Assembly: GCA_001793945.1 (NCBI GenBank)
Contig: MGIW01000003.1
Coordinates: forward strand, 129,630-193,629
Direction of reading: 5' to 3'
DNA: 64,000 nucleotides
From: Candidatus Wolfebacteria bacterium RIFOXYD12_FULL_48_21
GTDB taxonomy: Bacteria > Patescibacteriota > Minisyncoccia > UBA6257 > UBA9933
Program-made: the position numbers and the translations under genes
Notes under the pieces: model-generated
Seen by the model: the letters and a program-made list of their open reading frames with translations, nothing else
Databases searched by the model: none
What the model was told of the DNA's origin: nothing
Shown here: positions 3,047-45,956 of the stretch, in pieces
How the letters are laid out: each line of letters begins with the position of its first letter
Numbering within the stretch: the first letter of the stretch is position 1

Positions 3047-4486
3047 CTACGCATCGCCCAATATTTGCGTCTTGCGATGACGCAAATATAGTAGTATTCC
3101 TCCGACGACTGCGTAATAGAACAATAACAATACACCCGTCATTGGCATTGCAAATCCTTTATATGCGCCGAACAGCTCTATTACTCCTATCTCGTATTGC
3201 AACAGCACCGACACACCCCACGCGGGTATGGTCGCTAGCGGAACCGCAACAAACCCGATTGCCGCTATAAGAAATCCCAATCCCATTGTAACGGGAATAA
3301 ACGAGAGGATGACAATATTGGATGCGAGCGACACCAGCGAAAACGAACCGATTGATTGCATGAGTATGGGAAACACCATGAGCTGCGCCGACAGCGTACC
3401 CGACAAGTTTTCCCGCCAATTTAGCACGCCGCTTTTCTTTCGCTTAATGTATGCATCAAGATATGGCTTCACATAAATGATGCCTATTAGTGCGACAAAT
3501 GAAAGCTGAAACCCGAGGTCGTACCGAAGCACATTCGGGTTATACAACACCATAGCGCAGGCGCTTATGGCTATCGCGTTGCGCATGCTATGTGTGCGCC
3601 CAATGTGAGTTGCCAACAACACGATACTCCCCATGATCGCCGCGCGCACCACCGATGCTTCGGCGCCGGCCATGACCACGAAGCCTACTACAGCGCCGAG
3701 TGTTGCGTAAAACGCCGCTGTGCGGCGCAACAGCAACCCACAGGCCAACAGTATCGCTTCCGCAACCACACTAATGTTATACCCGGACAGCGCAACCAAG
3801 TGCGTCGTGCCGCTGTTTGCCATATTTTCCCTGAACTCCCAGTCGAACTCGGCGCGTTCGCCCAGTGTGATCCCCGCGAGCAGTGCCGCTTCGTCGGCAG
3901 GCAATGTCCGCTTGTATGTTTCAACGGCTGATCTTCTTATCGCAAATAGTCGCGTTACAATCGGATTGCCGTCGTTTCTTTTTACTCTATCCACTTCGGG
4001 AAATTGCATCGTTGCAAACAATGCGTCTTTCAATAAAAACCTCCAGCTATCTTCTTTTGGTCTTTGTATGTTTCCTGTCAGCACAAGCGCATCGCCATAT
4101 GCTACGGTCGGATATGCCCGAGCTACTACCGAAAGTCTTCCCGTATGCGGCTCGTCCAGCCGCACGATAAGCCTTTGGCTGTTTTCCATCTTGCGGACCT
4201 CTATTACATGCGCGCGTATTGCCGCCTGCGTGCCTATGAGCGGCGCTATTTGGTCCTGTTGATGCACATTATATCCGGTCCAATACAGCCCTCCCAATAT
4301 GCCCATGAGCGCAAGCGTAGCCAGCCACCCCAGTCGGACACTCCCTTTTTTGTATGCGATCCAACCGAGGCTTCCCGCAATGACCACAACGCTTGCGGAC
4401 ATGCCCGAGAGGTTCATTGCCGGGGCAAAAAATATGCCAAGCAGAAAAAACACGATCCCGAAAAATACGGATTCGTGGAGGTGCAT
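3047..4486 (-). CDS. comEC: ComEC/Rec2 competence-family integral membrane domain protein (first half of a split ComEC)
   Basis: 479-aa polytopic membrane protein with a ComEC-like competence domain, directly upstream and co-oriented with the MBL-domain ORF. Confidence 0.55.
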   Translation of the reverse strand: MHLHESVFFGIVFFLLGIFFAPAMNLSGMSASVVVIAGSLGWIAYKKGSVRLGWLATLALMGILGGLYWTGYNVHQQDQIAPLIGTQAAIRAHVIEVRKMENSQRLIVRLDEPHTGRLSVVARAYPTVAYGDALVLTGNIQRPKEDSWRFLLKDALFATMQFPEVDRVKRNDGNPIVTRLFAIRRSAVETYKRTLPADEAALLAGITLGERAEFDWEFRENMANSGTTHLVALSGYNISVVAEAILLACGLLLRRTAAFYATLGAVVGFVVMAGAEASVVRAAIMGSIVLLATHIGRTHSMRNAIAISACAMVLYNPNVLRYDLGFQLSFVALIGIIYVKPYLDAYIKRKKSGVLNWRENLSGTLSAQLMVFPILMQSIGSFSLVSLASNIVILSFIPVTMGLGFLIAAIGFVAVPLATIPAWGVSVLLQYEIGVIELFGAYKGFAMPMTGVLLLFYYAVVGGILLYLRHRKTQILGDA

Positions 4487-4747
4487 ATTAGATTTGTGAC
4501 ATGGTTAATGTTGCAAGGTGCATGGGAATGTTTATCATCCCCGGCGCTTTTATTTGTCATCCCGAACTTCGGGCCCCGTATCGCAGTGCGGGGTAAACTC
4601 CGGCGGGGATCCAGAGTTTTCTGCAGTGGCGGTGTTTGGATATTCAGACTCTGGATCCCGTGTCCCCGTATCGTGGTACGGGGCAGGCTGCGCACGGGAT
4701 GACAATACGAAGAGGAGTGACGATTTGCGCAGGGATGGAACAATTGC
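4487..4747. repeat. Hairpin repeat cluster (module ctggatcccgtgtccccgtatcgtggtacggggcaggctgcgcacgggatgacaat)
   Basis: This module recurs almost verbatim at 17570-17640 (reverse orientation), 35015-35075 and 47170-47230. Confidence 0.65.
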
Positions 4748-6767: not shown

Positions 6768-6820
6768 ATTGCTTTCAATGTAGCAAAATTAAAAAACGGC
6801 GTCAGCCGTTTTTTGCCATG

Positions 6821-6908: not shown

Positions 6909-7556
6909 TTACCCACCAATACTATCTAAAACCTTCCTAATTTTCAAGTGCTTGCGGGATAGACATCTTACATCATCCGCATAGTACATATATTTGATTA
7001 ATATATCTGATTCTTTCTTCGCGTACCTTAATTGATACACCGAGCTGCTTGGTTTTTCCGCACAATGCCCTTTTATTCCGCACGACTGATTTATCTCCGA
7101 GCGTAGCCAATCAATATGACCGCGACTTGCCGAAACGAAGCTCGTATAATACATGAGGCTTGATTTCCACCGCGGATCCCAGTATGAATAAAAGCACCCA
7201 TCCCCATCAAAATGCCCCCTCAAGAAATCTGCAAAATATTTTTTAGGAATATTTATTTCTTTTAAAATTTTTGTCTTATTCGGCATCAAACCTATTTCTA
7301 TCAAAAAATCATAGAATATTCTGTCTCCCAATTGGATCCGAAAATAATCTTTCTTCTCAGTATATCCGCTCGTATGGCCCTCGGTTTTATTGGAAATACC
7401 AAGACATTCCCTAAAATTATTGATCATCTCCAAATCCTTTGATACAAGAACGATATGTCTCCCATCTTTCGAAAGGCTTCCGTCCGTCACAATCAACCCA
7501 ATCGCATACGCGAACTCAGGAGACCATTCCAGCCTTACTTTGCCGAGCGGTTTCAT
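6909..7556 (-). CDS. Free-standing double-motif LAGLIDADG homing endonuclease
   Basis: Motif 1 is FAYAIGLIVTDGSL and motif 2 is ADFLRGHFDGDGCF. It starts 5 bp upstream of tRNA-Leu(GAG). Confidence 0.7.
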   Translation of the reverse strand: MKPLGKVRLEWSPEFAYAIGLIVTDGSLSKDGRHIVLVSKDLEMINNFRECLGISNKTEGHTSGYTEKKDYFRIQLGDRIFYDFLIEIGLMPNKTKILKEINIPKKYFADFLRGHFDGDGCFYSYWDPRWKSSLMYYTSFVSASRGHIDWLRSEINQSCGIKGHCAEKPSSSVYQLRYAKKESDILIKYMYYADDVRCLSRKHLKIRKVLDSIGG

Positions 7557-18690: not shown

Positions 18691-19041
18691 ATGAAAAAAA
18701 TAACACTCGCATCAGTAGCAGCAACGGCACTTGCCATGCCGGTACTCGGTTTTGCAGTAGCAGAGCTTCCGCCAGCGCGGGATACCGGAGGCACAGGAGT
18801 CGAGCCGATCATCCGCATCCTTAATACGGTCGGCAACTGGATGTTCGGCATCTTGATCGCAGCAGCGGCGATTTATATCTTACTTGCCGCGTTCAAGTTC
18901 CTTACGGCGTCAGGAGATTCAAAGAAGATCGACGAAGCAAAACACATGCTCACCTACGCGCTTGTCGCCATCGTCGTTGGAGCCCTTACCAAGGGAATCA
19001 TCGCGATTGCACAGGCAATTGCAGCAGGCTCAGGAATATAA
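18691..19041 (+). CDS. Small secreted two-helix protein, TrbC/VirB2-pilin-like (paralogue 3 of 3)
   Basis: Same architecture: signal peptide MKKITLASVAATALAMPVLGFAVA, then two hydrophobic helices. Confidence 0.35.
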   Translation: MKKITLASVAATALAMPVLGFAVAELPPARDTGGTGVEPIIRILNTVGNWMFGILIAAAAIYILLAAFKFLTASGDSKKIDEAKHMLTYALVAIVVGALTKGIIAIAQAIAAGSGI

Positions 19042-19054
19042 GTTTTTAACACAA

Positions 19055-19086
19055 AAAAGAAGCCCCGATTGCTCGGGGCTTTTTGT
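19055..19086. terminator. Bidirectional intrinsic terminator aaaaagaagccccgattgctcggggcttttt
   Basis: GC-rich 6-bp stem with an A-run upstream and a T-run downstream. The identical hairpin recurs at 20030-20062 and 45971-46004. Confidence 0.55.
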
Positions 19087-20029: not shown

Positions 20030-20062
20030 AAAAAGAAGCCCCGATTGCTCGGGGCTTTTTGT
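20030..20062. terminator. Intrinsic terminator, identical hairpin gccccgattgctcggggc
   Basis: See 19055..19086. Confidence 0.5.
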
Positions 20063-20077
20063 TGTGCACTTCAGTCG

Positions 20078-20518
20078 CTATCCGGGGAGGAATTGGCGGT
20101 TCAATGTCAACTCCATCTTTCCAGCCTTCTTAGCACGCACCTTAATGACAGGCGGCCACTGTTCAACTGCAAACAGTTCACCGGGCCCATCTTTGCGATA
20201 AGCCTTCCCGTCGAGGAAATCGTACTCCACCTCGATGTGCGGTGATGCGGTGATTTGATACCACATCGTACCATCTTTCGTTCGGTAGCACGGAAAGGTT
20301 ATGGCCACCCATTCCCCTTTAGGAAGGATCTTTTCTTCCTGAACGACCTCCTCCTTCCGTTGGGAGAGGTCCCAAACCGTGTTACTTTGCGGTTCTATTC
20401 GGCCAGCAACGATCCATATCATGAGCATCACTACCAAGCCAATGAGCCCCCATTTAACCAGGAGCTTTCCCACCCTTTTCACCCGCTCAAGGAGCGGTTG
20501 TTTTTTTGCTTCCGCCAT
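20078..20518 (-). CDS. Hypothetical single-pass membrane protein downstream of the SPFH gene (possible NfeD-like partner)
   Basis: TM helix LLVKWGLIGLVVMLMIWIV. It overlaps the stop of the SPFH ORF. The start was chosen at the internal Met MAEAKK. Confidence 0.3.
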   Translation of the reverse strand: MAEAKKQPLLERVKRVGKLLVKWGLIGLVVMLMIWIVAGRIEPQSNTVWDLSQRKEEVVQEEKILPKGEWVAITFPCYRTKDGTMWYQITASPHIEVEYDFLDGKAYRKDGPGELFAVEQWPPVIKVRAKKAGKMELTLNRQFLPG

Positions 20519-21446
20519 TTCTTCCTCCCGCACTTCCGTGCGCTCTGGCAGCGGCAATTACGCCGCCGATTAATTTCCCGAGACCGTCTCCACTCCCCTC
20601 GTCCACGATTCGAACGATTTCTTCGTTGATCCTGTGTTGGATCGTTCCCTCCTGGATTTGGACGGCCATAGTAGCATCCTTGAACGACACATCATCATGG
20701 CCCTTTTTAAGAATCTCCATGCGTTTTTTGAACGCCACCATTTCTTCCGCTTTCTGGGCGTTCTTGATCTTCATCGCCTTTCGCTCTGCCGCCGCGGCAA
20801 CAACATTTTTCGGTTCTACCAGCTGAGCCATATTCAGCCCAACCAATTTCACTCCGAATTGTTCAACGCAATACTCACCGTCATTCTCTGACAGCTTGAT
20901 CACGAGATCATCAAGGAAATCATCCCTCTTAGGGGCATTCGCCGCCGTTTCGAGATAGTTTTCCTTTACGAGCGCATCGACAATCCGGAGAATAAACTCC
21001 TGATACATCTTTTTTGCCTGATCGGCTGTATGAGGCTCCTCGCTTCTATCCTGAGCAAACCTTTCAACGGCCGTGCGCGCGATGCGCATGGTTTTCTTCG
21101 CAACGCCCTCCTGCTTGCCGTTCTTGATGAATTTTTCCCCGCCTCCTTCTGCTACTTCAAACAGCATTGTTAGCGAAGTCGTCAATTCGTCCTTGTTCGG
21201 CAATACGATCTCGAACTCCTCCACCGTTACATCGAACCGGCGCGGTACTTCAATGAAATCGGATATGACTCCCTTGAACCACAGAAACATGGCTCTCGGT
21301 CTCATGACCTTGTCTGTCGCCACCCCTCTTCGGGTGATAATCCGAACTTTCTCCGGATCTCCGAGGGGAACATATGCATAGCATCCCCACAAAATCGCCC
21401 CGCCAGCCACTATCATCAGCACTAAAATCGTTATGATCGTTCCCAT
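20487..21446 (-). CDS. SPFH/band-7 (stomatin/prohibitin/flotillin-like) domain membrane protein
   Basis: N-terminal TM helix followed by a ~250-aa domain with an SPFH-like pattern and a C-terminal coiled coil. Confidence 0.5.
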   Translation of the reverse strand: MGTIITILVLMIVAGGAILWGCYAYVPLGDPEKVRIITRRGVATDKVMRPRAMFLWFKGVISDFIEVPRRFDVTVEEFEIVLPNKDELTTSLTMLFEVAEGGGEKFIKNGKQEGVAKKTMRIARTAVERFAQDRSEEPHTADQAKKMYQEFILRIVDALVKENYLETAANAPKRDDFLDDLVIKLSENDGEYCVEQFGVKLVGLNMAQLVEPKNVVAAAAERKAMKIKNAQKAEEMVAFKKRMEILKKGHDDVSFKDATMAVQIQEGTIQHRINEEIVRIVDEGSGDGLGKLIGGVIAAARAHGSAGGRNGGSKKTTAP

Positions 21447-21761
21447 CTTCCCTCTCCTTCCGCGTTAGCGATGTAGATTCCTTTTATATATTCAGTTCTT
21501 AAAGGTCAGTCTTATTTAATATATATATACCATATTTGTATTCGTTTGTCAATATGTACAGAAAGCCCGGTTCTGGCTATACTTTTTTTACTAATTGCTT
21601 TGTATTTGTCATTCCGAGCCCATTCGACAAGCTCAGGGTGAACTCCGTGAAACGGAGCCGAGGAATCTGCCTTTACTACAGATACCTCGTCCGCCGACTG
21701 GCGGATCTGTATGACAACTTATCCGTTATTGGTCGTAGGTTGTTAGTTATAAGTTATTTTA

Positions 21762-21807
21762 GCCGGGGTGGCGAAATTGGCAGACGCACTCTCGTAAAAC
21801 TTCACAT
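21762..21807 (+). pseudogene. tRNA 5'-half fragment (acceptor GCCGGGG + D-arm TGGCGAAATTGGCAGACGC) immediately 5' of tRNA-Leu(TAG)
   Basis: The D-arm is almost identical to that of the adjacent intact tRNA-Leu. No anticodon or T arm follows. Confidence 0.3.
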
Positions 21808-21889
21808 GCCCCCATGGCGAAATTGGTAGACGCGCCAGTTTTAGGAACTGGTTCCGCAAGGATTAGAGGTTCGAGTCCTCTTGGGGGCA
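21808..21889 (+). tRNA. tRNA-Leu(TAG), class II
   Basis: Sequence GCCCCCATGGCGAAATTGGTAGACGCGCCAGTTTTAGGAACTGGTTCCGCAAGGATTAGAGGTTCGAGTCCTCTTGGGGGCA. It has a 7-bp acceptor stem, anticodon loop TTTAGGA (anticodon TAG) and T-loop TTCGAGT. Confidence 0.75.
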
Positions 21890-21895
21890 CATTCG

Positions 21896-22090
21896 TTTTT
21901 CTCGGCCTTAGGCCGGCCTCACTTTTGAACAGATGTTCGGCCGGCACTCCTTGAGTCGAAGCCGCACCGCAAGGTATGCAGGCTCAAGTCCTGTCCCCGG
22001 CACATATTTCAATTATTTTTTCGTCTTAGGCCGGCTCGCCTGAATAGATGCTCACCGGCACTCTGATGCATCGCCCTCACGATCTATCCG
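21896..22090 (+). repeat. Two imperfect ~50-nt tandem units (cttaggccggcYYcRc...gaaYagatgYtc..ccggcactc) with GC-rich hairpins, downstream of tRNA-Leu(TAG). The first is followed by a tRNA-3'-end-like CCCCGGCACA.
   Basis: Units at 21896-21950 and 22017-22064 were aligned by eye. The palindromic GGCCGG stems are read directly. Confidence 0.4.
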
Positions 22091-22101
22091 TATACATCTT
22101 T

Positions 22102-22151
22102 TTTTATTTGCTGTCCAAATGTACGACCGTACATTTGGACAGCAAATAAAA
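22102..22151. repeat. 40-bp perfect palindrome tttgctgtccaaatgtacg-ac-cgtacatttggacagcaaa (extends to 50 bp with the flanks). Copy 1, downstream of the PaaX-like gene.
   Basis: The 42-bp core atttgctgtccaaatgtacgaccgtacatttggacagcaaat is identical to 22847-22888. Confidence 0.8.
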
Positions 22152-22193
22152 CATCCGGCGTATATGTCTCATTTTCCGTGCGCTATTCACCGC

Positions 22194-22802
22194 TTATATT
22201 ACATGCTTTAAATTCCCAGTGCTTCCCACTTCGAATATCTCCACAAAGCCTTCAAGTTTCATTTTCATAATATCGGCGATCAATTCCTTTGGTATTTTTG
22301 TCTTCCCGATCCACACGCTTTTCTGTGCCATTTTAAAATCCAAATTCCCCAACACCATCCTTAGCCATGTACGCTTTTTCGTATATTCTTCCGGGATATC
22401 AAACATGACAATAATAACCTTATTCCCTTTTTCCTTTGGATAATACACATCGGGATATCCTTCTTTGCTTTTTAAAAATTCCAACTTCTGTTTTCCGCGT
22501 TCTGTTATTTTATATTTCTTTTTTTCCACTCCTATCTCTTCATTTATTAGCCCGTCTCTTTTTAATTTGTAGATCAGGCTATAATATCTGTTTGTCATCT
22601 TTCGCTCTTCTTCTTCGGTTCGCTTTCGCACATCGCGCCCGGTCCGTATTTTGTTTAAATTATAGTTAATGTCTATCGGCGATGCGCCGCGCCCACCTTC
22701 AACGACAGCCTCCAGCAGATCAAGCTGTGCGTCAATTCCCTCGCTTATCGCCTCCAATATTCTAAGTGATGATTTGTATCTCATGTTCTGCCTATCTTTC
22801 AT
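22194..22802 (-). CDS. PaaX-like regulator: N-terminal winged-helix HTH plus C-terminal Cas2-like (ferredoxin-fold) domain
   Basis: RYYSLIYKLKRDGLINEEIGVEKKKYKITERGKQ is wHTH-like. KVIIVMFDIPEEYTKKRTWLRMVLGNLDFKMAQKSVWIG fits the Cas2 / PaaX-middle-domain pattern (hhhhhYDh...RR.L...L..G.RVQ.SVF). Confidence 0.4.
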   Translation of the reverse strand: MKDRQNMRYKSSLRILEAISEGIDAQLDLLEAVVEGGRGASPIDINYNLNKIRTGRDVRKRTEEEERKMTNRYYSLIYKLKRDGLINEEIGVEKKKYKITERGKQKLEFLKSKEGYPDVYYPKEKGNKVIIVMFDIPEEYTKKRTWLRMVLGNLDFKMAQKSVWIGKTKIPKELIADIMKMKLEGFVEIFEVGSTGNLKHVI

Positions 22803-22846
22803 GCTTTAATTACGATGTGCTTTTCATATAAGTATACCATTCCCAT

Positions 22847-22888
22847 ATTTGCTGTCCAAATGTACGACCGTACATTTGGACAGCAAAT
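22847..22888. promoter_or_regulatory. Second copy of the 40-bp perfect palindrome, ~45 bp upstream of the PaaX-like gene start. Candidate operator.
   Basis: Identical to 22106-22147. A -10-like tatactta lies between the palindrome and the start codon on the minus strand. Confidence 0.45.
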
Positions 22889-23001
22889 CCATGGTGGTCA
22901 TTTTTATCCCGATTCCAATTTATTTGCGCTAAATCAACTACCCTCGTCAGAGCAGAGGGGGATTCGGAATATCAAGCGTCGCCGCAAAGATAGGCAACAA
23001 T

Positions 23002-23038
23002 AAAAAGCCGCAACGCGTTGACGCGTTGCGGTTGTTTT
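23002..23038. terminator. Intrinsic terminator aaaagccgcaacgcgttgacgcgttgcggttgtttt
   Basis: 10-bp GC-rich stem flanked by an A-run and a T-run. Confidence 0.5.
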
Positions 23039-23223
23039 GATCTCTCTTCCTATATATCTCTGTAGTAGAAAAGCAGATCCCTCCGCTCCTCCGTCACCTG
23101 CCTGCCGGTAGGCAGGGCTGACGGATCCGGTCGGGATGACAGGATACTGGATTCCCGTTTTCACGGGAATAACAGAACGGGAGGCGGGAATGACACCGTA
23201 CCGGACCCCTATTTTCACAGAAA

Positions 23224-24354
23224 TTACATGGGAGAAAATACCCCGGCCCATTTTTTGCCTTTTCTGTTTGGCTTGTGCTCTTTGACTTCAATCTGCTCGA
23301 CTTCTTTCCCTTGTAGGGCAAAGTGCCGAGTGACATATTTTATAATGTCCGGGTCTTTCGGCGTCGGGTTAAAATCAACCAATCCCTCCTTCGTTTCATC
23401 CTCCCCTTTAAACTTCACGCGGATGAGATAACTGCCTTGCGCGGTGCGCGCCTTGCACTCGTTCTTTACCAGCTTCCCGACGAACTTGTTGCCGTCGCCG
23501 AGGTCGACTTGCACCTTTGCGGTCTTTCCGGCGAGCAGTTCTTTGAACTTGTCCATCGCTTCCGCGATCCACAACTCCCCCGCTGCAAGTGGGCGGGGCG
23601 GCTTGCATAAACTTACACCATCGCACCACACACTTCCGTCGTCCCAGTACACATACCGATAACAACGGGGCTTATCTGCGTCATCTCTGTTCGATTCGCC
23701 CAGCTTTTTTTGTCTCGCAAAAAATCGCGTACCCATGCAGGTCTTTATCGACGGAGTACCGTCGAAATCGAACACCACGAATTTTTTCCCGAAACGATAT
23801 ACCGGGTCATCTTGCATTCCGTGTGGGAATGCAAAGTCGCCTACCGATTGTTCATTGCCTATGGCGTAGAACCACGGTGTGAGCTTTCCGCACAGTACCC
23901 AGCGTTTAAACCCGGGATGCGCTTCGTGCTTTTCTGCGGTGCCATAACCCACTTTCGTAAATGCGCTCAAGGCGGCTTCCAGCGTTTCCCATTCGATAAA
24001 CACCACTCCTTCCTGTTCCGTATATCGGTGCGTCACAATTCCGCACCGGCCTTCCGGTGGATCTTTAATTTCGAGTACTTCCAAATATCCTCCACCATTT
24101 CCATAATTGCCGATGCCGTGATATCGATGCTGCACGATATCGTACCGTGAGTAGTTCCCGTAAACACCGTGCGCAAGCAGCACTCGCCTGGTTGTAGCCT
24201 CTTCGATCGTACGAACATGCGTCCGCAAAAATTCCACAACCTGCGCACTTTCGCCGATAGGGCAAGTGAATTTTACCGGCTGGCCTGTGCCCGTATGTCC
24301 TTCTCCATGCTGATATGAGCTAAATCTGTCGCTGTCATTCTGCGCCATGTGCAC
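23224..24354 (-). CDS. Hypothetical protein (possible metallophosphoesterase-like N-terminus). Function unknown.
   Basis: 376-aa ORF with good coding appearance. Only weak motif resemblance. Confidence 0.3.
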   Translation of the reverse strand: MHMAQNDSDRFSSYQHGEGHTGTGQPVKFTCPIGESAQVVEFLRTHVRTIEEATTRRVLLAHGVYGNYSRYDIVQHRYHGIGNYGNGGGYLEVLEIKDPPEGRCGIVTHRYTEQEGVVFIEWETLEAALSAFTKVGYGTAEKHEAHPGFKRWVLCGKLTPWFYAIGNEQSVGDFAFPHGMQDDPVYRFGKKFVVFDFDGTPSIKTCMGTRFFARQKKLGESNRDDADKPRCYRYVYWDDGSVWCDGVSLCKPPRPLAAGELWIAEAMDKFKELLAGKTAKVQVDLGDGNKFVGKLVKNECKARTAQGSYLIRVKFKGEDETKEGLVDFNPTPKDPDIIKYVTRHFALQGKEVEQIEVKEHKPNRKGKKWAGVFSPM

Positions 24355-24892
24355 TCCTCCCCTTTCTTTGATTATGCAGTTTTAAAGGTTAGCTTCTTTC
24401 GAAAACCTACCATTATTTTTTAGTGAAGTCCAGCGGCCGGGGGCAACTTATAACTAATAACTGATAACCGATAACGGGAGCGGGGATGCTAACCGATGAC
24501 CGATAACTAATGACTAATGACGGGATGCTGGATTCCCGCCTGCGCGGGAATGACAATGCAAAATACTGGATCCCGGCTTTCGCCGGGATGACAATGCGGG
24601 GAGGGGGAAATGACCGATGACTGATGACCGATGACGGGATGCGAGGAGGAGGGTATAAAGTATAAGGTATACGGTATGGGGAGGATTTCTAATTACGGAT
24701 TTTTAATTTCTAATGAGGGATGCGAGGAGAGTGTCATCCTGAACCTGATTCAGGATCTTGTGAGAAAGAAACGAGATTCCGAAACAAGTTCGGAATGACA
24801 GATAGTCGAGGCGGGGGATATAGAGTGCGAATGCGAAATACTGGATTCCCGTTTTCACGGGAATGATAGAAGGAGGAAAAAATAAAAGCGAT
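24355..24892. repeat. Dense composite repeat block: TAACYRATAAC low-complexity, ggattcccgcctgcgcgggaatgacaatgc, ctggatcccggctttcgccgggatgacaatgcgggg, and gggtataaagtataaggtatacggtatgggg purine tract
   Basis: Each module recurs at many other loci (e.g. 26025-26055, 26930-26960, 47037-47085, 50940-50990). Confidence 0.65.
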
Positions 24893-25810
24893 TTACTCGC
24901 TTTTATTTTTCCTCCTCCGCCCGTGAAATGTTTGGTGTATTTCCTTGAGTTCCTTGTTGGTTATGTGCGTGTATATCTGCGTGGTCGCGATGTTTGCGTG
25001 GCCGAGCATTTCCTGTACCGACCGTATGTCCGCTCCGTTGATCAACAGGTCAGTCGCGAAACTATGCCGCAACATGTGCGGATGCACATGCTTTGCTATG
25101 CCCGCCTTGCGCGAATAAAAATCAACCAGCCGTTGCACCGTCCGCGGAACGATTCTCCCGATTACCTTCGGACTCTTTGCCTTGGTGTAACTCACGAACA
25201 TCGCCTCCTCCGCGTCTCCCCTTTTCTCTAAATAATTTTTTATTTCCTTTACGGACCGTTCATCCAAAAACACCACCCGCAGTTTATTCCCCTTTCCGCG
25301 CACCGTCACTTCTCCCCGATCGAAATCCATGTAACGGTTCAAACTACACAACTCCGATATGCGCAACCCGGTCGAGAACAATACTTCGAGTATCGCACGA
25401 TCCCGCAATGCTTTTGTATCGCCTCCGCTTACGGCGCTCAAGAGCCGTTCAAGCTCATCATATTCCATAACCTCTATTTGTCGTGCCGGCACTTTGGGCA
25501 GCTCTATCTTGTCGGGCGATAATACCTTGTGGTCGTTTTTTATAAGGTACTTCAAAAAGTTTCGAAGCGCTATTATATAGTAGCTCTGTGTGGACTTACT
25601 ATACTGCTCCCCTCTTCCATTTGACGAGCGCGCCAAGTGCAACCGAAAATCCCGTACCCGCTCCACGGTTATGTCTGCTTCGCTCTTGATCCCCTCAACC
25701 TCGAAAAACTTTTTCAGATACCGCCCGTAGTTCTCCCCGGTCTTTTGCGATCGATTTTTTTCTATCTCGAGGTAGTCAAGATATTCTTTTAGCAGAATGT
25801 TTACATCCAT
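24893..25810 (-). CDS. Tyrosine site-specific recombinase, XerC/XerD family
   Basis: N-terminal core-binding SAM-like domain (LKEYLDYLEIEKNRSQKTGENY). C-terminal catalytic residues R..HxxR..Y are present (LRHSFATDLL, ...GHANIATTQIYTHI). Confidence 0.7.
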   Translation of the reverse strand: MDVNILLKEYLDYLEIEKNRSQKTGENYGRYLKKFFEVEGIKSEADITVERVRDFRLHLARSSNGRGEQYSKSTQSYYIIALRNFLKYLIKNDHKVLSPDKIELPKVPARQIEVMEYDELERLLSAVSGGDTKALRDRAILEVLFSTGLRISELCSLNRYMDFDRGEVTVRGKGNKLRVVFLDERSVKEIKNYLEKRGDAEEAMFVSYTKAKSPKVIGRIVPRTVQRLVDFYSRKAGIAKHVHPHMLRHSFATDLLINGADIRSVQEMLGHANIATTQIYTHITNKELKEIHQTFHGRRRKNKSE

Positions 25811-25864
25811 TACCCTCAGTATAGCAAATTGTTTTGCGACAGAATACCGAGCGTGATTTGTCAT

Positions 25865-26330
25865 CCCGAGTGCAACGCAGCGAAGCGGAGTGAAATCGAG
25901 GGATCTGATAGTAGCAAGCAGATTTCTCGACTCCTCCGTCGGCTGACGGATGCGCTCGGAATGACAGGGTGAGGTGGGATCCAGTTTTTTCTGCGGTAGC
26001 GGTGCCTTGGGTAATGGATACTGGATTCCCGCCTGCGCGGGAATGACAATGCAGGCGGAGAGGTGAGAGATTGGAGGGGGGGTGTCATCCCGAGTGCAAC
26101 GCAGCGGAGCGGAGTGGAATCGAGGGATCTGACTTTATACTACAGATTCCTCGGCACTTGAAGCGCAGAACCTTATGCACCTCGAGTACCCCCGGCACGC
26201 TACACACTCGTTTCACTCGTTAGCAACGCCGAGGGTCGGGCTCGAGATGACAATGCGGGGGAAAAATAACTGATGACAGGATGCGGGGGCAATACGAGGG
26301 TTTATTTTGCCGAATTTTTGTAGAACAGGT
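25865..26330. repeat. Hairpin repeat block (gtcatcccgagtgcaacgcagcgaagcggagtgaaatcgagggatctg... twice, ctggattcccgcctgcgcgggaatgacaatgc)
   Basis: Near-identical to 10290-10400 and 34840-34935. Confidence 0.65.
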
Positions 26331-26390
26331 GTGATCCGCCAGCCGGCGGATTGTTTCACATTCGGCAAAACCAAAAAATGTGAGATAAAA

Positions 26391-26675
26391 TGTTTCACGT
26401 GAAACAATTTACCTCGTTTTTCGCCCCAAGTGTGAAACAATTATGTTTCACACCGTGCACAGTGTTTCACGTGAAACACTTTATCTCGTTTTTCGCCCCT
26501 CCTCCTCTTTTTAGCGATTTGTGAAATCTGTCATTTTGAACAAATTGTTTCACGTGAAACAATTTGTCTCATATTTAGCCTATAGGTGTGAAACAACGAT
26601 GTTTCACACTGTGCACAGTGTTTCACGTGAAACACTTTATCTCGTTTTCCTTGAATAATTGTTTCACGTGAAACA
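26391..26675. promoter_or_regulatory. Cluster of five perfect consensus parS sites TGTTTCACGTGAAACA (26391-26406, 26463-26478, 26546-26561, 26619-26634, 26660-26675), plus two variant inverted repeats GTGTGAAACA-N4-TGTTTCACAC (26430-26453, 26586-26609)
   Basis: Each 16-mer is an exact palindrome. It equals the ParB-binding parS consensus tGTTtCAcGTGAAAca known from Bacillus and many other bacteria. Confidence 0.7.
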
Positions 26676-26699
26676 CTTTTGCTCACTTTTTGGCTTTTT

Positions 26700-27044
26700 G
26701 CCTATTTATTGGTTCGGCAGTTACCCCTGAGTTATCCACAACCAATTGGGGATAACTCGGCAATACCCCCCCCCGGGGGGGGGATGACTTATGACCGATA
26801 ACCAATAACTGATGACGGGATGCTTTATTCCCGCCTGCGCGGGAATGACACGCTCCCCGTATTGTCATCCCGTGCCACGACACGGGATCCAGTATTTTCT
26901 GCGGTAGTAACATATATAGATATTCAGACTCTGGATCCCGGCTTTCGCCGGGATGACAATACCGAGATGCGGGATGCTAACTGATGACCGATGACCGATA
27001 ACTAATAACGGGGGAGGGGCAGGATGGCGTAGCTCGGGTTCGGG
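26700..27044. repeat. Hairpin and low-complexity repeat block (ggattcccgcctgcgcgggaatgaca, ctggatcccggctttcgccgggatgacaat, TAACYRATAAC)
   Basis: Shared modules. Confidence 0.6.
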
Positions 27045-27482: not shown

Positions 27483-28459
27483 GGCATGGGGGGGGTAAAG
27501 TATGAGGTATGAGGTATGAGGTATACGGTATACGGTATGGGAGGGGGAGAGAGATTAGAAATTAGATGTTAGAGATGAGAGATTGGAGGGGGGGGAGGGG
27601 GGAGATGAGAGGCGAGAGGTGAGAGATAAGAGATGAGAGAAAGAGGGGAGACGCGATAATTCGGCAACATTATTGTTATCCACACTTGCGCTGTTTGCCG
27701 AATGTTTTGTATACTGTAGTCAGATATACATGGGTAGCACAATTCAATATCTAACACGGCTTTGATTCCCTCTTGCGTCGGAAAAAATAAGTCACACACA
27801 CTTTAGATTACGCAACTCTTTTGTCTTGGCGTAAGCCTGACTATTCTTATTCCGAGCCGTCATCTGACGGACGACGAATTAGGACCTCGCGGTAAAGCGA
27901 TGGGATTCCGGATCAAGTCCGGAATGACAGAGAGAGGAGGCTCGGGATGACATGCCGAGTTTCGTAATTTAAAAACTCACTTGAACCGCACATGACACTC
28001 TTGCGTTTGTCATCTCGCATATGTTCGCCTCTTTTGTCTTTTTCCAAAAAGACTTTTTGTCGTTTTAGTCTGCCGCCGACAAAGTCGCATATAATGGATT
28101 CCCGCCTTCGCGGGAATGACACAGAGAAGAATCGGAATGACAAGGGGCTAAGCTGTCATCCTGAACTTGTTTCAGGATCTCATGAGAAAGAAACGAGATT
28201 CCGAAACAAGTTCGGAATGACAGATAGTCGAGGACAGGCCCTCCTCCGCCGGTATGACAGAGAGAAAGATAGGAATGGCAGAGGGAAACAAATTTCATTT
28301 TTAAAAACAAACTTCACTAAAAAAATCTCCACCCCGCACATGCAATCAATTACCAAACTTAACCAAATGAAAAAGAACTGGATACCGGCCTCCGCCGGTA
28401 TGACACAGGGGGGGGGTCGCAAGAAGAAAAATGTAACGATGTCAGACATCGTTACATTG
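27483..28459. repeat. Long repeat-laden leader: purine-rich low-complexity tracts (27483-27660), hairpin modules (27900-28440) and a REP-like 29-bp palindrome (28430-28458) upstream of the giant surface protein gene
   Basis: gagataagagatgagag-type tracts plus ggattcccgccttcgcgggaatgaca and ctggataccggcctccgccggtatgaca modules. Confidence 0.55.
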
Positions 28460-45131: not shown

Positions 45132-45185
45132 AGTGATGATATTACCCTTATTAAACGCCAAACCAACCAAAATTGCAAAACGCCA

Positions 45186-45214
45186 AATGTAACGATGTCT
45201 GACATCGTTACATT
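45186..45214. repeat. 29-bp REP-like palindrome AATGTAACGATGTCTGACATCGTTACATT immediately upstream of the RAYT gene
   Basis: Inverted repeat read directly from the sequence. Confidence 0.7.
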
Positions 45215-45233
45215 TGCGTGCTATTATATAAAC

Positions 45234-45914
45234 ATGTCTGAACTATACCATGCTCTTAACCGAGGAGTTGATAAGAAGAAAATATTTCTGGACAAACAGG
45301 ACCACTTGCGATTTATTCATGACCTTTATGAATTCAATGACGAAGCTCCGGCGAGCAATAATTGCCACGGCTTTCGCCGGATGCCGGTTAAATGTAACGA
45401 TGTCGGACGTCGTTATATTAAACGATCCCGATTGGTTACCATCCATGCATTCTGTCTCATGCCAAACCATTATCATCTGCTTTTAAGCCCGCGCGTCGAG
45501 AATGGTATCCCTTTATTTATGAAGAAGTTGAATGGCGGATATGCAAAGTATTTCAACGAACGATACGATCGAAAAGGGACATTATTTGAGGGAAGGTATA
45601 AGTCGGTGCCGGTAACGGCGCAATCACACTTTATTCACTTGCCCTATTATATTCACTTGAACCCGTTGGATATGTTTGATCACGGATGGCGGGATCGGGT
45701 AGTTCATAGCCATGCCGATACCATAAAATATTTGGAAAATTATCGATGGTCGAGCCATTTGGACTATTTGGGGAAAAAGAATTTCCCCTCGGTTACACAA
45801 CGAGAGTTCCTGCTCGAATTTTTTGGAGGACAGGAGGGATACGCGCAAGCGTTAGCCCAATGGGTCAAAGATATTAGTATCAACGAGATACATGACATCA
45901 TCTTAGAAAAGTGA
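45234..45914 (+). CDS. IS200/IS605-family Y1 (HuH) transposase of the REP-associated tyrosine transposase (RAYT) type, interrupted in-frame by a copy of its own palindrome (45391-45419)
   Basis: HuH motif CLMPNHYHLLL and Tyr motif GTLFEGRYKS. The palindrome is translated as …VKCNDVGRRYI… without a stop. Confidence 0.5.
   Translation: MSELYHALNRGVDKKKIFLDKQDHLRFIHDLYEFNDEAPASNNCHGFRRMPVKCNDVGRRYIKRSRLVTIHAFCLMPNHYHLLLSPRVENGIPLFMKKLNGGYAKYFNERYDRKGTLFEGRYKSVPVTAQSHFIHLPYYIHLNPLDMFDHGWRDRVVHSHADTIKYLENYRWSSHLDYLGKKNFPSVTQREFLLEFFGGQEGYAQALAQWVKDISINEIHDIILEK
45391..45419. repeat. Imperfect copy of the 29-bp palindrome inside the RAYT coding sequence
   Basis: aatgtaacgatgtcggacgtcgttatatt. Confidence 0.6.
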
Positions 45915-45928
45915 CTGCAGTAAACGCA

Positions 45929-45956
45929 AATGTAACGATGTCAGACGTCGTTACAT
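45929..45956. repeat. REP-like palindrome copy immediately downstream of the RAYT gene
   Basis: aatgtaacgatgtcagacgtcgttacat. Confidence 0.65.

What the first reader, a model, noticed from the sequence alone, without database searches (positions are those of the whole stretch)
21760..23040. tRNA-linked cassette: a PaaX-like (wHTH + Cas2-fold) regulator bracketed by two identical 42-bp perfect palindromes, next to tRNA halves and tandem structured repeats
A 202-aa protein with a winged-helix N-terminus and a Cas2-like ferredoxin-fold C-terminal half (VIIVMFDIPEEYTKKRTWLRMVLGNLDFKMAQKSVW) is bracketed by two identical copies of atttgctgtccaaatgtacgaccgtacatttggacagcaaat (22106-22147 and 22847-22888). 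Each copy is itself a perfect 19-2-19 palindrome, so the flanks act as both direct and inverted repeats. The upstream copy sits in the promoter, which is operator-like. The ~785-bp unit lies ~215 bp downstream of tRNA-Leu(TAG). That tRNA is itself flanked by a tRNA 5'-half fragment and by two tandem GC-hairpin units ending in a tRNA-3'-like CCCCGGCACA. Together this looks like a small integrated or excisable module, or a tightly autoregulated Cas2-fold protein of unknown role. There is no CRISPR array or cas1 nearby.
Basis: partly seen in the sequence, partly recalled or inferred. Interest (0 to 1): 0.7.

Follow-up and report, generated by a model that had tools for sequence, protein, structure and literature searches.

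The report
Cas2-fold regulator bracketed by its operators
A small DNA-binding protein of a tiny groundwater bacterium (a winged-helix domain fused to a Cas2-like domain) has its gene flanked on both sides by the same long palindrome; this layout holds across a large, undescribed protein family and looks like self-regulation through two operators, not a mobile cassette.

Summary

The main new result is that the layout is family-wide. All 12 distinct homologues examined, down to 38% identity, carry their own palindrome at both gene ends. The arms co-vary with the protein, and the centre is always CG-RY-CG.

- Mismatches cluster at positions 4-10 from the centre, which points to protein contacts on duplex DNA rather than a hairpin.
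- The upstream copy overlaps the core promoter. The downstream copy has neither a -10 element nor a U-tract.
- A further copy sits at the same place, between recA and an Endonuclease Q gene, in two species.
- The locus is syntenic across Parcubacteria, no tRNA repeat flanks the far side, and there are no viral relatives. An excisable module is therefore not supported.
- The "tRNA halves" are decayed tandem tRNA-Leu(TAG) duplicates.

Best reading: an autorepressor with an auxiliary downstream operator and a small regulon. The family has at least 702 clusters and appears uncharacterised.

The parts
22194..22802 (-). Gene for a 202-aa wHTH + Cas2-like (PaaX_M) protein. Homologues start at the position of the second ATG (22781), so that may be the true start.
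22847..22888 (.). Promoter-side 20-2-20 palindrome, the proposed primary operator. Its gene-proximal arm holds the -35 box.
   Evidence: A cognate palindrome is present at the same relative place in all 12 homologues.
22831..22858 (-). Predicted sigma-70-type promoter of the gene: -35 TGGACA (22858-22853), 16-nt spacer, TG-extended -10 TATACT (22836-22831).
   Evidence: 10 of 12 matches. The same TGG-TATACT -10 is conserved in the L002, L011 and L013 orthologues.
22106..22147 (.). Identical palindrome 3' of the gene, starting 46 nt after the stop. Proposed auxiliary operator or roadblock site. It is followed by neither a -10 element nor a U-tract.
   Evidence: A downstream cognate copy is present in all 12 homologues.
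21808..21890 (+). Intact tRNA-Leu(TAG) ('tRNA-B'), convergent with the gene. It is a conserved neighbour, not part of the regulatory unit.
   Evidence: The same convergent tRNA-Leu(TAG) occurs in L011, L013, L032, L034 and L036.
21764..21791 (+). 5' fragment (about 27 nt) of a second tRNA-Leu(TAG) ('tRNA-A') that is intact in related strains.
   Evidence: Alignment with L002 and L009. ARAGORN finds the intact copy in L002 at 4473-4555.
21891..22090 (+). Trailer unit 1, then a 38-nt 3' fragment of a tRNA-A-like copy (21965-22002), then trailer unit 2. These are remnants of tandem tRNA-plus-trailer duplications.
   Evidence: (D4).
23006..23033 (.). Canonical bidirectional intrinsic terminator of the upstream 374-aa gene. 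It shows that this genome uses ordinary GC-stem plus U-tract terminators, unlike the palindromes.

Best explanation
**Proposed mechanism**
- The gene encodes a sequence-specific DNA-binding protein. It has an N-terminal winged helix and a C-terminal Cas2-like domain that most likely dimerises, as in Cas2 and PaaX. It lacks PaaX's C-terminal ligand-binding domain.
- The protein binds the long palindrome as a symmetric oligomer.
- Each half-site is bipartite: an inner CGT next to the RY centre, and an outer box about one helical turn away (TTTGGACA in this lineage).
- The promoter-side palindrome covers the -35 box of the gene's own promoter, so binding represses the gene.
- The identical palindrome just past the stop codon is an auxiliary operator. 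Most likely it cooperates with the promoter site by looping the roughly 740-bp gene. Alternatively it acts as a protein roadblock that stops transcription running out of, or into, the gene.
- The same protein controls a very small regulon, which includes an Endonuclease Q DNA-repair gene.

**Shown versus inferred**
- Shown: the fold, the conserved two-palindrome layout, the protein-palindrome co-variation, the mismatch pattern, the promoter overlap, and the conserved extra site.
- Inferred: binding itself, repression, looping or roadblock, and any catalytic role of the conserved Cas2-type Asp.
For: 1. **Fold.** wHTH plus Cas2-like, with PaaX as the best structural match.
2. **Layout is family-wide.** In 12 of 12 distinct family members (38-100% identity, various gene contexts) a cognate palindrome lies both upstream and downstream of the gene, with centres 650-834 bp apart.
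3. **Co-variation.** The arm sequences differ between members, for example GCTGTCCAAATGTACG, ATATGTCCAAATGTACG, GCTGTCCAAATTGACG, ACTTTTATCTGACG, ACTATCCTTAGCTGACG and GTAACCTATTGAACG. The two copies beside one gene match each other. Two different family members, P0005 and P0036, each have their own palindrome; both list a longest contig of 984,447 bp, which hints that they are paralogues in one genome. The most variable protein segment is the predicted recognition-helix region (residues about 42-60).
4. **Mismatch pattern.** Within positions 1-17 of the arms of imperfect copies, 25 of 32 mismatches fall at positions 4-10 from the centre. Positions 1-2 and 11, 12, 14 and 15 never vary within a site. 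This is expected for two protein contact zones on duplex DNA, not for a hairpin stem.
5. **Promoter overlap.** In the window the -35 lies in the arm and is followed by TGnTATACT. The same is seen in L002 and L013, and other members have -35-like TTGACG/TTGAAC at the centre with a -10 at the arm edge.
6. **Downstream copies are not terminators or promoters.** The window's downstream copy has no -10 after it, and its stem is followed by A-runs rather than U-runs. A canonical terminator exists nearby at 23006-23033.
7. **Conserved extra site.** In RIFOXYB1_FULL_54_12 an exact 42-nt copy lies between recA and an EndoQ homologue (PDB 5zb8, 1.4e-45). In the window's own genome type the orthologous spacer has a palindrome at the same place. 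Its changes are symmetric and confined to the tolerant positions, while CGT and TTTGGACA are kept.
8. **Another extra site.** The site in L019 faces -35 TTGGACA, an 18-nt spacer and TGTAAT, followed by about 240 nt of non-coding DNA that ends in a terminator.
Against: - No binding or expression data exist; everything is inferred from sequence.
- A 42-bp perfect palindrome is much longer than typical dimer operators, so the stoichiometry is unknown.
- The role of the downstream copy is not established. Looping and roadblock are guesses, and its downstream neighbours differ between lineages: a convergent tRNA, miaA, argS, or a DNA-alkylation repair gene.
- At least one extra site (L027) lies between convergent genes with no promoter-like element.
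- At the EndoQ gene, the best -10/-35 pair I could find by eye lies about 55 nt downstream of the palindrome, so repression there is not obvious.
- The invariant Cas2-type FDIPE Asp and the KSVW motif would not be needed for a purely structural dimerisation domain. This leaves room for a catalytic role.
Confidence: 0.6

Rival explanations
1. Mobile or excisable cassette. The two palindromes would be the ends, or recombination sites, of a roughly 785-bp element that moves. Possible models are REP/RAYT, IS200, an integron cassette, or a Xer-dependent 'dif module'. The Cas2-fold protein, or a neighbouring xer-like recombinase, would act on them.
For: - The bracket architecture resembles the genuine RAYT gene in the same window. 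That Y1_Tnp gene (45234-45914) is flanked by its own REP-like palindromes, with further copies at 1900-1932 and 28430-28458.
- Extra copies of the palindrome exist at other loci.
- The cassette is AT-rich: 39% GC against 48% for the window.
- Its dS against a related species is 0.135, compared with 0.52 and 0.85 for the flanking genes.
- A tyrosine recombinase gene lies directly upstream in L034 and L036 and one gene away in the window.
- The Cas2-type Asp is invariant.
Against: - The locus is syntenic in lineages with only 41-65% protein identity, and no empty site was found.
- The palindromes co-vary with the protein rather than with the recombinase. Their centre is conserved and their arms are variable, the opposite of dif-type sites.
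- Only about one extra copy per genome was found, and no half-sites occur elsewhere in the 64 kb.
- The extra EndoQ site is positionally conserved between species.
- The high-identity tract between the two species runs from about 21500 to 23250, well beyond the palindromes, so it is an ordinary recombination tract.
- The protein has no HUH, tyrosine- or serine-recombinase motifs, and no viral relatives.
- No tRNA-derived direct repeat lies on the far side of the cassette.
Confidence: 0.08
2. The palindromes work as RNA hairpins rather than DNA operators. The 3' copy would be a terminator or mRNA-stabilising hairpin. The Cas2-like domain (Cas2 and VapD are reported ribonucleases) would bind or cleave these hairpins for post-transcriptional autoregulation.
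For: - The hairpins are very stable: -22 to -24 kcal/mol as DNA, z-scores of -12 to -13.
- The downstream copy lies inside the 3' UTR zone, with its centre 21-77 nt after the stop, in all members.
- In L013 the downstream copy is followed by AATTTTGA in both directions, which is terminator-like.
- Cas2-family motifs are conserved.
Against: - The predicted transcription start lies downstream of the promoter-side palindrome, so that copy would not be in the mRNA.
- In the window the stem is followed by A-runs rather than U-runs on both strands, and canonical terminators are used elsewhere in this genome.
- Imperfect copies tolerate up to five consecutive mismatches in mid-stem but none at positions 1-2 and 11, 12, 14 and 15. 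This is a protein-contact pattern, not a stem pattern.
- Extra sites lie in untranscribed-looking spacers upstream of genes.
Confidence: 0.1
3. An autoregulated toxin-like or defence-like nuclease. The Cas2/VapD-like domain would be an active nuclease, and the wHTH and palindromes would serve only to keep it tightly repressed. The physiological role would be stress response, growth arrest or anti-phage action, not gene regulation.
For: - The catalytic-position Asp (FDIPE) and other polar residues (E138, R144, R148, K161, S162) are invariant.
- PADLOC and NCBIfam Cas2 models give near-threshold hits.
- Tight autoregulation by two operators is typical of harmful genes.
Against: - There is no partner antitoxin or immunity gene, and no defence-island context. 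The neighbours are housekeeping genes.
- The gene is vertically conserved and syntenic across Parcubacteria.
- The extra operator at EndoQ implies a regulatory role.
- The Asp is also conserved in Cas2 proteins whose nuclease activity is dispensable (my background knowledge, not tested here).
Confidence: 0.1

Closest known systems
PaaX (phenylacetyl-CoA-responsive repressor of the paa operon; PDB 8a39; Pfam PF07848 + PF20803 + PF08223)
   Same: - It has an N-terminal winged helix followed by a Cas2-like central domain.
- The Pfam PaaX_M domain scores above its cutoff.
- Like PaaX, the protein is inferred to be a repressor acting on palindromic operators.
   Different: - The protein ends at residue 202 and has no PaaX_C effector domain.
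- The PaaX N-terminal Pfam model does not hit it.
- Sequence identity in the structural alignment is only 10-13%.
- The operator is a 36-42-bp palindrome present at both gene ends, not a short box in target promoters.
- There are no paa genes nearby.
- The Cas2 hallmark motifs (FDI..., KSVW) are retained.
CRISPR-associated Cas2 (TIGR01573 / PF09827)
   Same: - They retain the beta1 'DI' Asp and the 'SV(F/W)' strand motif.
- Some database entries name family members Cas2.
   Different: - Scores fall just below both curated cutoffs: 22.3 against 24.5 and 23.7 against 23.8.
- The domain is fused to a 125-aa wHTH region.
- No cas1 and no CRISPR array are present.
- The gene is a single-copy syntenic gene in a phylum that I recall from the literature as largely lacking CRISPR-Cas; that point was not tested here.
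Repressor genes bracketed by cooperating operators (lambda cI between OR and OL; deoR/lac/gal-type auxiliary operators)
   Same: - The repressor's own gene lies between two sets of its binding sites.
- One site overlaps its promoter and the distal one lies several hundred bp away.
- This is the closest functional analogy for how the pair could work through DNA looping. It rests on textbook knowledge.
   Different: - There is no protein homology.
- Here each site is a single, very long, perfect palindrome.
- The distal site has no promoter of its own.
- Looping is not demonstrated.
REP / RAYT systems (REP-associated Y1 transposase flanked by its REP palindromes)
   Same: - The gene is flanked on both sides by copies of a palindrome that also occurs elsewhere in the genome.
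- A genuine example lies in this same window at 45184-45956.
   Different: - The protein is not a HUH/Y1 enzyme.
- Extra copies number about one per genome rather than tens to hundreds.
- The extra site is positionally conserved between species.
- The upstream copy overlaps the promoter.

Membership tests
PaaX family transcriptional repressor | Central Cas2-like domain (Pfam PF20803 PaaX_M) | tested here: met
   [not shown]
PaaX family transcriptional repressor | N-terminal PaaX wHTH domain (PF07848) | tested here: inconclusive
   There is no PF07848 hit at E<=1; only weak PadR, HTH_45 and F-93 wHTH hits appear. The model does show a three-helix plus beta-wing wHTH.
PaaX family transcriptional repressor | C-terminal effector (phenylacetyl-CoA) binding domain (PF08223 PaaX_C), and association with paa genes | tested here: not met
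   The protein ends at residue 202, directly after the Cas2-like domain, with no PaaX_C hit. No paa genes are among the neighbours.
CRISPR-associated Cas2 | Score above the curated Cas2 model cutoffs | tested here: not met
   TIGR01573 scores 22.3 against 24.5. PF09827 scores 23.7 against 23.8. Both are just below cutoff.
CRISPR-associated Cas2 | Genomic association with cas1 and a CRISPR array | tested here: not met
   No array was found by TRF in the 64 kb. No Cas1 is among the genes called within 10 kb, nor in the 11 other family loci.
CRISPR-associated Cas2 | Ferredoxin-like beta-alpha-beta-beta-alpha-beta fold with a conserved Asp at the end of beta1 | tested here: met
   [not shown]
REP/RAYT or IS200/IS605 element | HUH/Y1 transposase (Pfam Y1_Tnp) | tested here: not met
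   No Y1_Tnp hit for this protein. The true RAYT elsewhere in the window does hit it, at 2.7e-10.
REP/RAYT or IS200/IS605 element | Many dispersed copies of the flanking palindrome, or multiple element copies, in the genome | tested here: not met
   There are only the two flanking copies in 64 kb, even allowing 3 mismatches in a half-site. The representative genome holds 2 exact copies plus 1 near-exact copy. About one extra site per contig set was found in metagenomes.
tRNA-targeting integrative element | Element bounded by direct repeats derived from the tRNA 3' end (attL/attR), with presence/absence polymorphism | tested here: not met
   The tRNA 3'-like fragments occur only on the tRNA side (21867-21889 and 21980-22002); none lies beyond 22888. 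All related loci carry the gene.
Xer/dif-type recombination module | Sites with conserved 11-bp recombinase-binding arms around a 6-8-bp variable centre, which co-vary with the recombinase | tested here: not met
   Here the centre (CG-RY-CG) is conserved, the arms are variable, and the sites track the wHTH-Cas2 gene. Most loci have no adjacent recombinase.
Intrinsic (Rho-independent) terminator | GC-rich stem followed by a U-tract on the transcribed strand | tested here: not met
   The terminator scan does not call either palindrome, and the window copy is followed by A-runs on both strands. The scan does call 23006-23033 nearby.
Autoregulated repressor with a palindromic operator | Operator overlaps the core promoter of the regulator's own gene | tested here: met
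   The -35 lies inside the proximal arm and a TG-extended -10 follows 16 nt on. Equivalent overlaps occur in homologues. This is a consensus prediction only.
Autoregulated repressor with a palindromic operator | The protein binds the operator and represses transcription | not testable with these tools
   This needs EMSA or footprinting, plus in vitro transcription or a reporter assay.

The most novel reading that the evidence does not exclude
The family could be a free-standing, sequence-specific relative of Cas2. In this reading the Cas2-fold dimer, with its conserved catalytic-position Asp, not only binds but also acts on the long palindromes that bracket its own gene, for example by nicking or by processing a cruciform. 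The 'repeat-gene-repeat' unit would then be a self-maintaining element. Its palindromes would be kept identical, flipped at the centre (AC to GT between close strains) and occasionally seeded at new loci such as the EndoQ and trpS spacers. That would make it a Cas2-based counterpart of REP/RAYT. It would also be a living model of how a Cas2-like protein became tied to palindromic repeats before CRISPR.
Probability: 0.07. Interest if true: 0.85.

Novelty: new variant of a known kind. Interest (0 to 1): 0.55.

Why it matters
Patescibacteria (CPR) have tiny genomes, few recognisable transcription factors and almost no experimental genetics. This analysis gives three things.

- **A testable regulator family.** The family is large: at least 702 clusters at 50% identity with E<=1e-30, and nearly all of the 150 members listed are about 175-235 aa. 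Its DNA site can be read directly from the genome, because every member carries two copies next to its own gene. That makes operators and regulons predictable across hundreds of uncultured lineages. It also makes them testable in vitro with nothing more than a synthetic gene and an oligonucleotide.
- **An annotation correction.** Several database entries call these proteins 'CRISPR-associated endonuclease Cas2'. They are not part of any CRISPR system.
- **A link to Cas2 and DNA repair.** The family shows a Cas2 fold used in sequence-specific recognition of long palindromes, which bears on the evolutionary link between PaaX-type regulators and Cas2. The conserved site in front of Endonuclease Q, and a family member next to alkylation-repair and ExoX genes, hint at a DNA-repair regulon in a group where I am not aware of a described DNA-damage response circuit.

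Tried and rejected
- **Hairpin or terminator reading.** Folding shows very stable hairpins. Against this, the mismatch pattern, the absence of U-tracts and the predicted transcription start all argue otherwise.
- **REP-like dispersal.** Half-site searches with 3 mismatches found nothing else in the window. Whole-collection scans found only about one extra site per genome.
- **Phage origin.** There are no relatives in IMG/VR.
- **Cassette-specific horizontal transfer.** The gene's dS is 4-6 times lower than that of its flanking genes. However, the high-identity tract runs from about 21500 to 23250, beyond both palindromes. Strains also mix the identical protein with either tRNA haplotype. This is ordinary homologous recombination.
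- **Downstream copy as a second promoter.** A TATACG lies 17 nt after the outward-facing TGGACA in the window and in L002. Nothing similar is seen in L011 or L013, so I rejected it as a conserved feature.
- **Direct repeat D2 (22192-22224 and 22790-22822, 76% identity).** It spans the stop and start regions. I treated it as chance.
- **Xer/dif reading.** Rejected on site architecture.
- **Second paralogue near the variant sites.** None was found in the DNA held.
- **Literature.** Five full-text searches found nothing on this family or on PaaX/Cas2-like proteins in Patescibacteria.
- **AFDB fold search.** The library was unavailable.
- **Exhausted caps.** I could not scan complete genomes for degenerate sites.
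Full report
**1. Observation**

The window comes from a Candidatus Wolfebacteria (Patescibacteria/CPR) genome. The encoded protein is identical to A2524_03580 of Wolfebacteria RIFOXYD12_FULL_48_21.

The sequence ATTTGCTGTCCAAATGTACGACCGTACATTTGGACAGCAAAT occurs at 22106-22147 and at 22847-22888. It appears nowhere else in the window, even with three mismatches, and no match appeared in 100 shuffles. Each copy has 20-nt arms around a 2-nt centre.

The only gene between the copies is a 202-aa ORF on the minus strand, 22194-22802. The right-hand copy is therefore upstream of the gene and the left-hand copy is downstream.

**2. The protein**

- Pfam gives PaaX_M ('PaaX central Cas2-like domain') above its cutoff. 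CRISPR_Cas2 scores a hair below cutoff, and there are weak PadR-type wHTH hits.
- NCBIfam and PADLOC Cas2 models also score just below or near threshold.
- An AlphaFold2 model built on 23 homologues has pLDDT 85. It shows three helices plus a beta-wing, followed by a beta-alpha-beta-beta-alpha-beta domain.
- The protein stops right after the Cas2-like domain, so it lacks PaaX's effector domain.
- In the family alignment the Cas2 hallmarks are invariant: F134-D135-I-P137-E138, R144, W146, R148 and K161-S162-V163-W164. The segment after the GYGAS turn, which is the start of the long third helix, is the most variable.
- A profile search of 1.84 billion cluster representatives finds 702 clusters at E<=1e-30. 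Nearly all of the 150 listed are about 175-235 aa long.
- Named members are Wolfebacteria or other Patescibacteria. One is labelled 'Lokiarchaeia', but its locus has typical Parcubacteria synteny.
- No relatives were found in IMG/VR.

**3. The bracket is a family trait**

I fetched loci for 11 further distinct homologues (38-97% identity). In every one there is a long palindrome both upstream and downstream of the gene.

- The two copies beside one gene match each other, but the arm sequences differ between members.
- The centre is always CG-RY-CG.
- Centre-to-centre distance is 650-834 bp.
- Two different family members, P0005 and P0036, each have their own palindrome. Both list a longest contig of 984,447 bp, which hints at two paralogues in one genome.
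- The central dinucleotide is AC, GT or AT. It is flipped (AC against GT) between close strains, as expected if it is unconstrained or inverts within the palindrome.

**4. Duplex operator rather than hairpin**

- Counting positions 1-17 of the arms of imperfect copies, 25 of 32 mismatches lie at positions 4-10 from the centre. Positions 1-2 and 11, 12, 14 and 15 are never mismatched. This bipartite pattern, an inner CGT and an outer box one helical turn away, is what protein contacts on B-DNA predict. A stem would not tolerate five consecutive central mismatches, as seen in the L034 upstream copy.
- The promoter scan places a -35 (TGGACA) inside the gene-proximal arm and a TG-extended -10 (TATACT) 16 nt further on. 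The same -10 is conserved in the orthologues L002, L011 and L013. Other members have TTGACG or TTGAAC at the palindrome centre and a -10 at the arm edge. The transcript should therefore start downstream of the palindrome.
- The downstream copies are not followed by -10 elements. In the window they are flanked by a U-run 5' and an A-run 3' on both strands, the reverse of a terminator. An ordinary terminator is present at 23006-23033.

**5. Extra sites**

- A scan of one genome per species found the palindrome only in Wolfebacteria RIFOXYB1_FULL_54_12. It occurs there at the orthologous cassette and at a third place, between recA and a PHP-domain gene. That gene is an Endonuclease Q homologue (5zb8, 1.4e-45).
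- In the window's own genome type the orthologous recA-EndoQ spacer carries a palindrome at exactly the same position (TTTGGTGTCCAAgTTGACG-AT-CGTCAATTTGGACACCAAA). Its differences are symmetric and fall in the tolerant or edge positions, while CGT and TTTGGACA are intact. This site is therefore conserved across species whose EndoQ proteins are 81% identical.
- A metagenome scan with a degenerate core found few further sites:
  - One lies in the P0005-type genome, next to trpS. It faces a promoter-like element and about 240 nt of non-coding DNA that ends in a terminator.
  - One lies in front of a small ORF (L023).
  - One variant site lies between convergent genes with no promoter-like element (L027).
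- The number of sites per genome is therefore very small.

**6. Not a recent insert**

- The gene lies next to a convergent tRNA-Leu(TAG), a Band_7/SPFH gene and T4SS-pilin genes in lineages as distant as 41-48% protein identity. A xer-like recombinase is upstream in some of them.
- No tRNA-derived repeat lies on the far side of the cassette.
- Against the related species in L002, the gene's dS is 0.135, compared with 0.52 and 0.85 for the two neighbours.
- The high-identity tract runs from about 21500 to 23250, past both palindromes. Strains also combine the identical protein with either tRNA arrangement. This is homologous recombination in the population rather than movement bounded by the palindromes.

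**7. The tRNA fragments**

- The window carries, in order: 27 nt of the 5' end of a tRNA-Leu(TAG) 'A', an intact tRNA-Leu(TAG) 'B', a trailer unit, 38 nt of the 3' end of an A-like copy, and a second trailer unit.
- Strains L002 and L009 carry an intact A, a trailer, the 3' part of B, the same trailer, and a truncated A-like 3' end.
- The trailers after the A-type copies are about 85% alike by my reading of the alignment.
- The simplest account is a tandem array of tRNA-plus-trailer copies that lost different members in different strains. Each strain keeps one working tRNA-Leu(TAG).

**8. Mechanism and comparison**

- The evidence best fits a symmetric oligomer of a PaaX-like, Cas2-fold-containing wHTH protein. 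It would bind its long bipartite palindrome, repress its own promoter, use the second copy beyond the stop codon as an auxiliary site (looping or roadblock), and control a tiny regulon that includes EndoQ.
- It works like an operator-bracketed repressor gene (lambda cI between OR and OL, or auxiliary-operator systems). It is structurally closest to PaaX.
- It fails the membership tests for PaaX proper (no effector domain), for CRISPR Cas2 (below cutoffs, no cas1 or array), and for REP/RAYT, IS200, tRNA-integrating elements and dif modules.
- My five full-text searches found no description of the family.

**9. Uncertainties**

- No binding, expression or activity data exist.
- The function of the downstream copy is the weakest step.
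- The invariant Cas2-type acidic and basic residues leave open a catalytic role.
- Complete genomes could not be scanned for degenerate sites.

Noticed in passing
window 45184-45956; also 1900-1932, 28430-28458 and 45393-45420: A genuine REP/RAYT unit. A 226-aa IS200-like Y1 transposase gene (45234-45914; Pfam Y1_Tnp 2.7e-10) is flanked by two copies of the palindrome ATGTAACGATGTC-N-GACATCGTTACAT. More copies lie elsewhere in the window, and a degenerate one lies inside the gene.
   Followed up: partly
window 26386-26758: Five palindromes of the form TGTTTCAC|GTGAAACA lie at 26386-26638; from memory this matches the canonical parS consensus. Next to them is an inverted pair of TTATCCACA-type (DnaA-box-like) motifs at 26729-26758. 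Cumulative GC skew reaches a local minimum at about 24-26 kb (-1.12), though lower values occur later in the window. This may be the origin/partition region, about 3.5 kb from the cassette.
   Followed up: no
window 24383-26081 (xer-like gene 24893-25864); L003 6722-8420 against L007 1687-1849: The roughly 1.7-kb segment carrying the tyrosine-recombinase (xer-like) gene is absent from one otherwise 100%-identical metagenomic contig (L007), where about 165 nt of unrelated sequence replaces it. In the window the segment is flanked by the dispersed CPR-type repeats that translate as '...SFPRRRESS...'. It could be a real deletion or insertion polymorphism, or an assembly collapse across the repeats.
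   Followed up: partly
window 21764-22090; L002 4473-4860; L009: There are two haplotypes of a decayed tandem tRNA-Leu(TAG) array. Different copies are intact in different strains, and strains mix these haplotypes with an identical regulator gene.
   Followed up: yes
L015 6001-8563 (and L016): A 44%-identical family member lies directly upstream of a DNA-alkylation-repair gene (PF08713) and an ExoX-like exonuclease. PIF1, Mrr and Peptidase_S24 genes are nearby. Together with the EndoQ site this hints at a DNA-repair theme. The spacer also holds two copies of a different palindrome, GTAATAGAC(A/T)|(A/T)GTCTATTAC (6776-6795 and 6946-6965).
   Followed up: no
L027 7430-7475 (same contig as L017): A variant palindrome, GGTGTCCAAATTGACG-AT-CGTCAATTTGGACACC, lies between the convergent M50-peptidase and truB genes. 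The genome's cassette uses the GCTGTCCAAATGTACG type. The same variant type is the one found before EndoQ in the window's genome type. It could be a second regulator's site or a tolerated variant.
   Followed up: partly
L019 1663-1935: About 240 nt of non-coding DNA lies between a palindrome-embedded promoter-like element (TTGGACA, 18-nt spacer, TGTAAT) and a strong terminator. It is a possible small RNA or small-protein gene. There is no Rfam match.
   Followed up: partly
window 19057-19084 and 20033-20060: Two identical terminator hairpins (AAGAAGCCCCGA-TTGC-TCGGGGCTTTTT) lie about 1 kb apart: one just after ORF 18691-19041 (which matches the T4SS_pilin genes called in L003) and one downstream of the 159-aa ORF 20078-20557.
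   Followed up: no
window 22106-22888: The cassette has 39% GC, against 48% for the window and 50-52% for the flanking genes. Its synonymous divergence from a related species is 4-6 times lower than that of its neighbours.
   Followed up: yes
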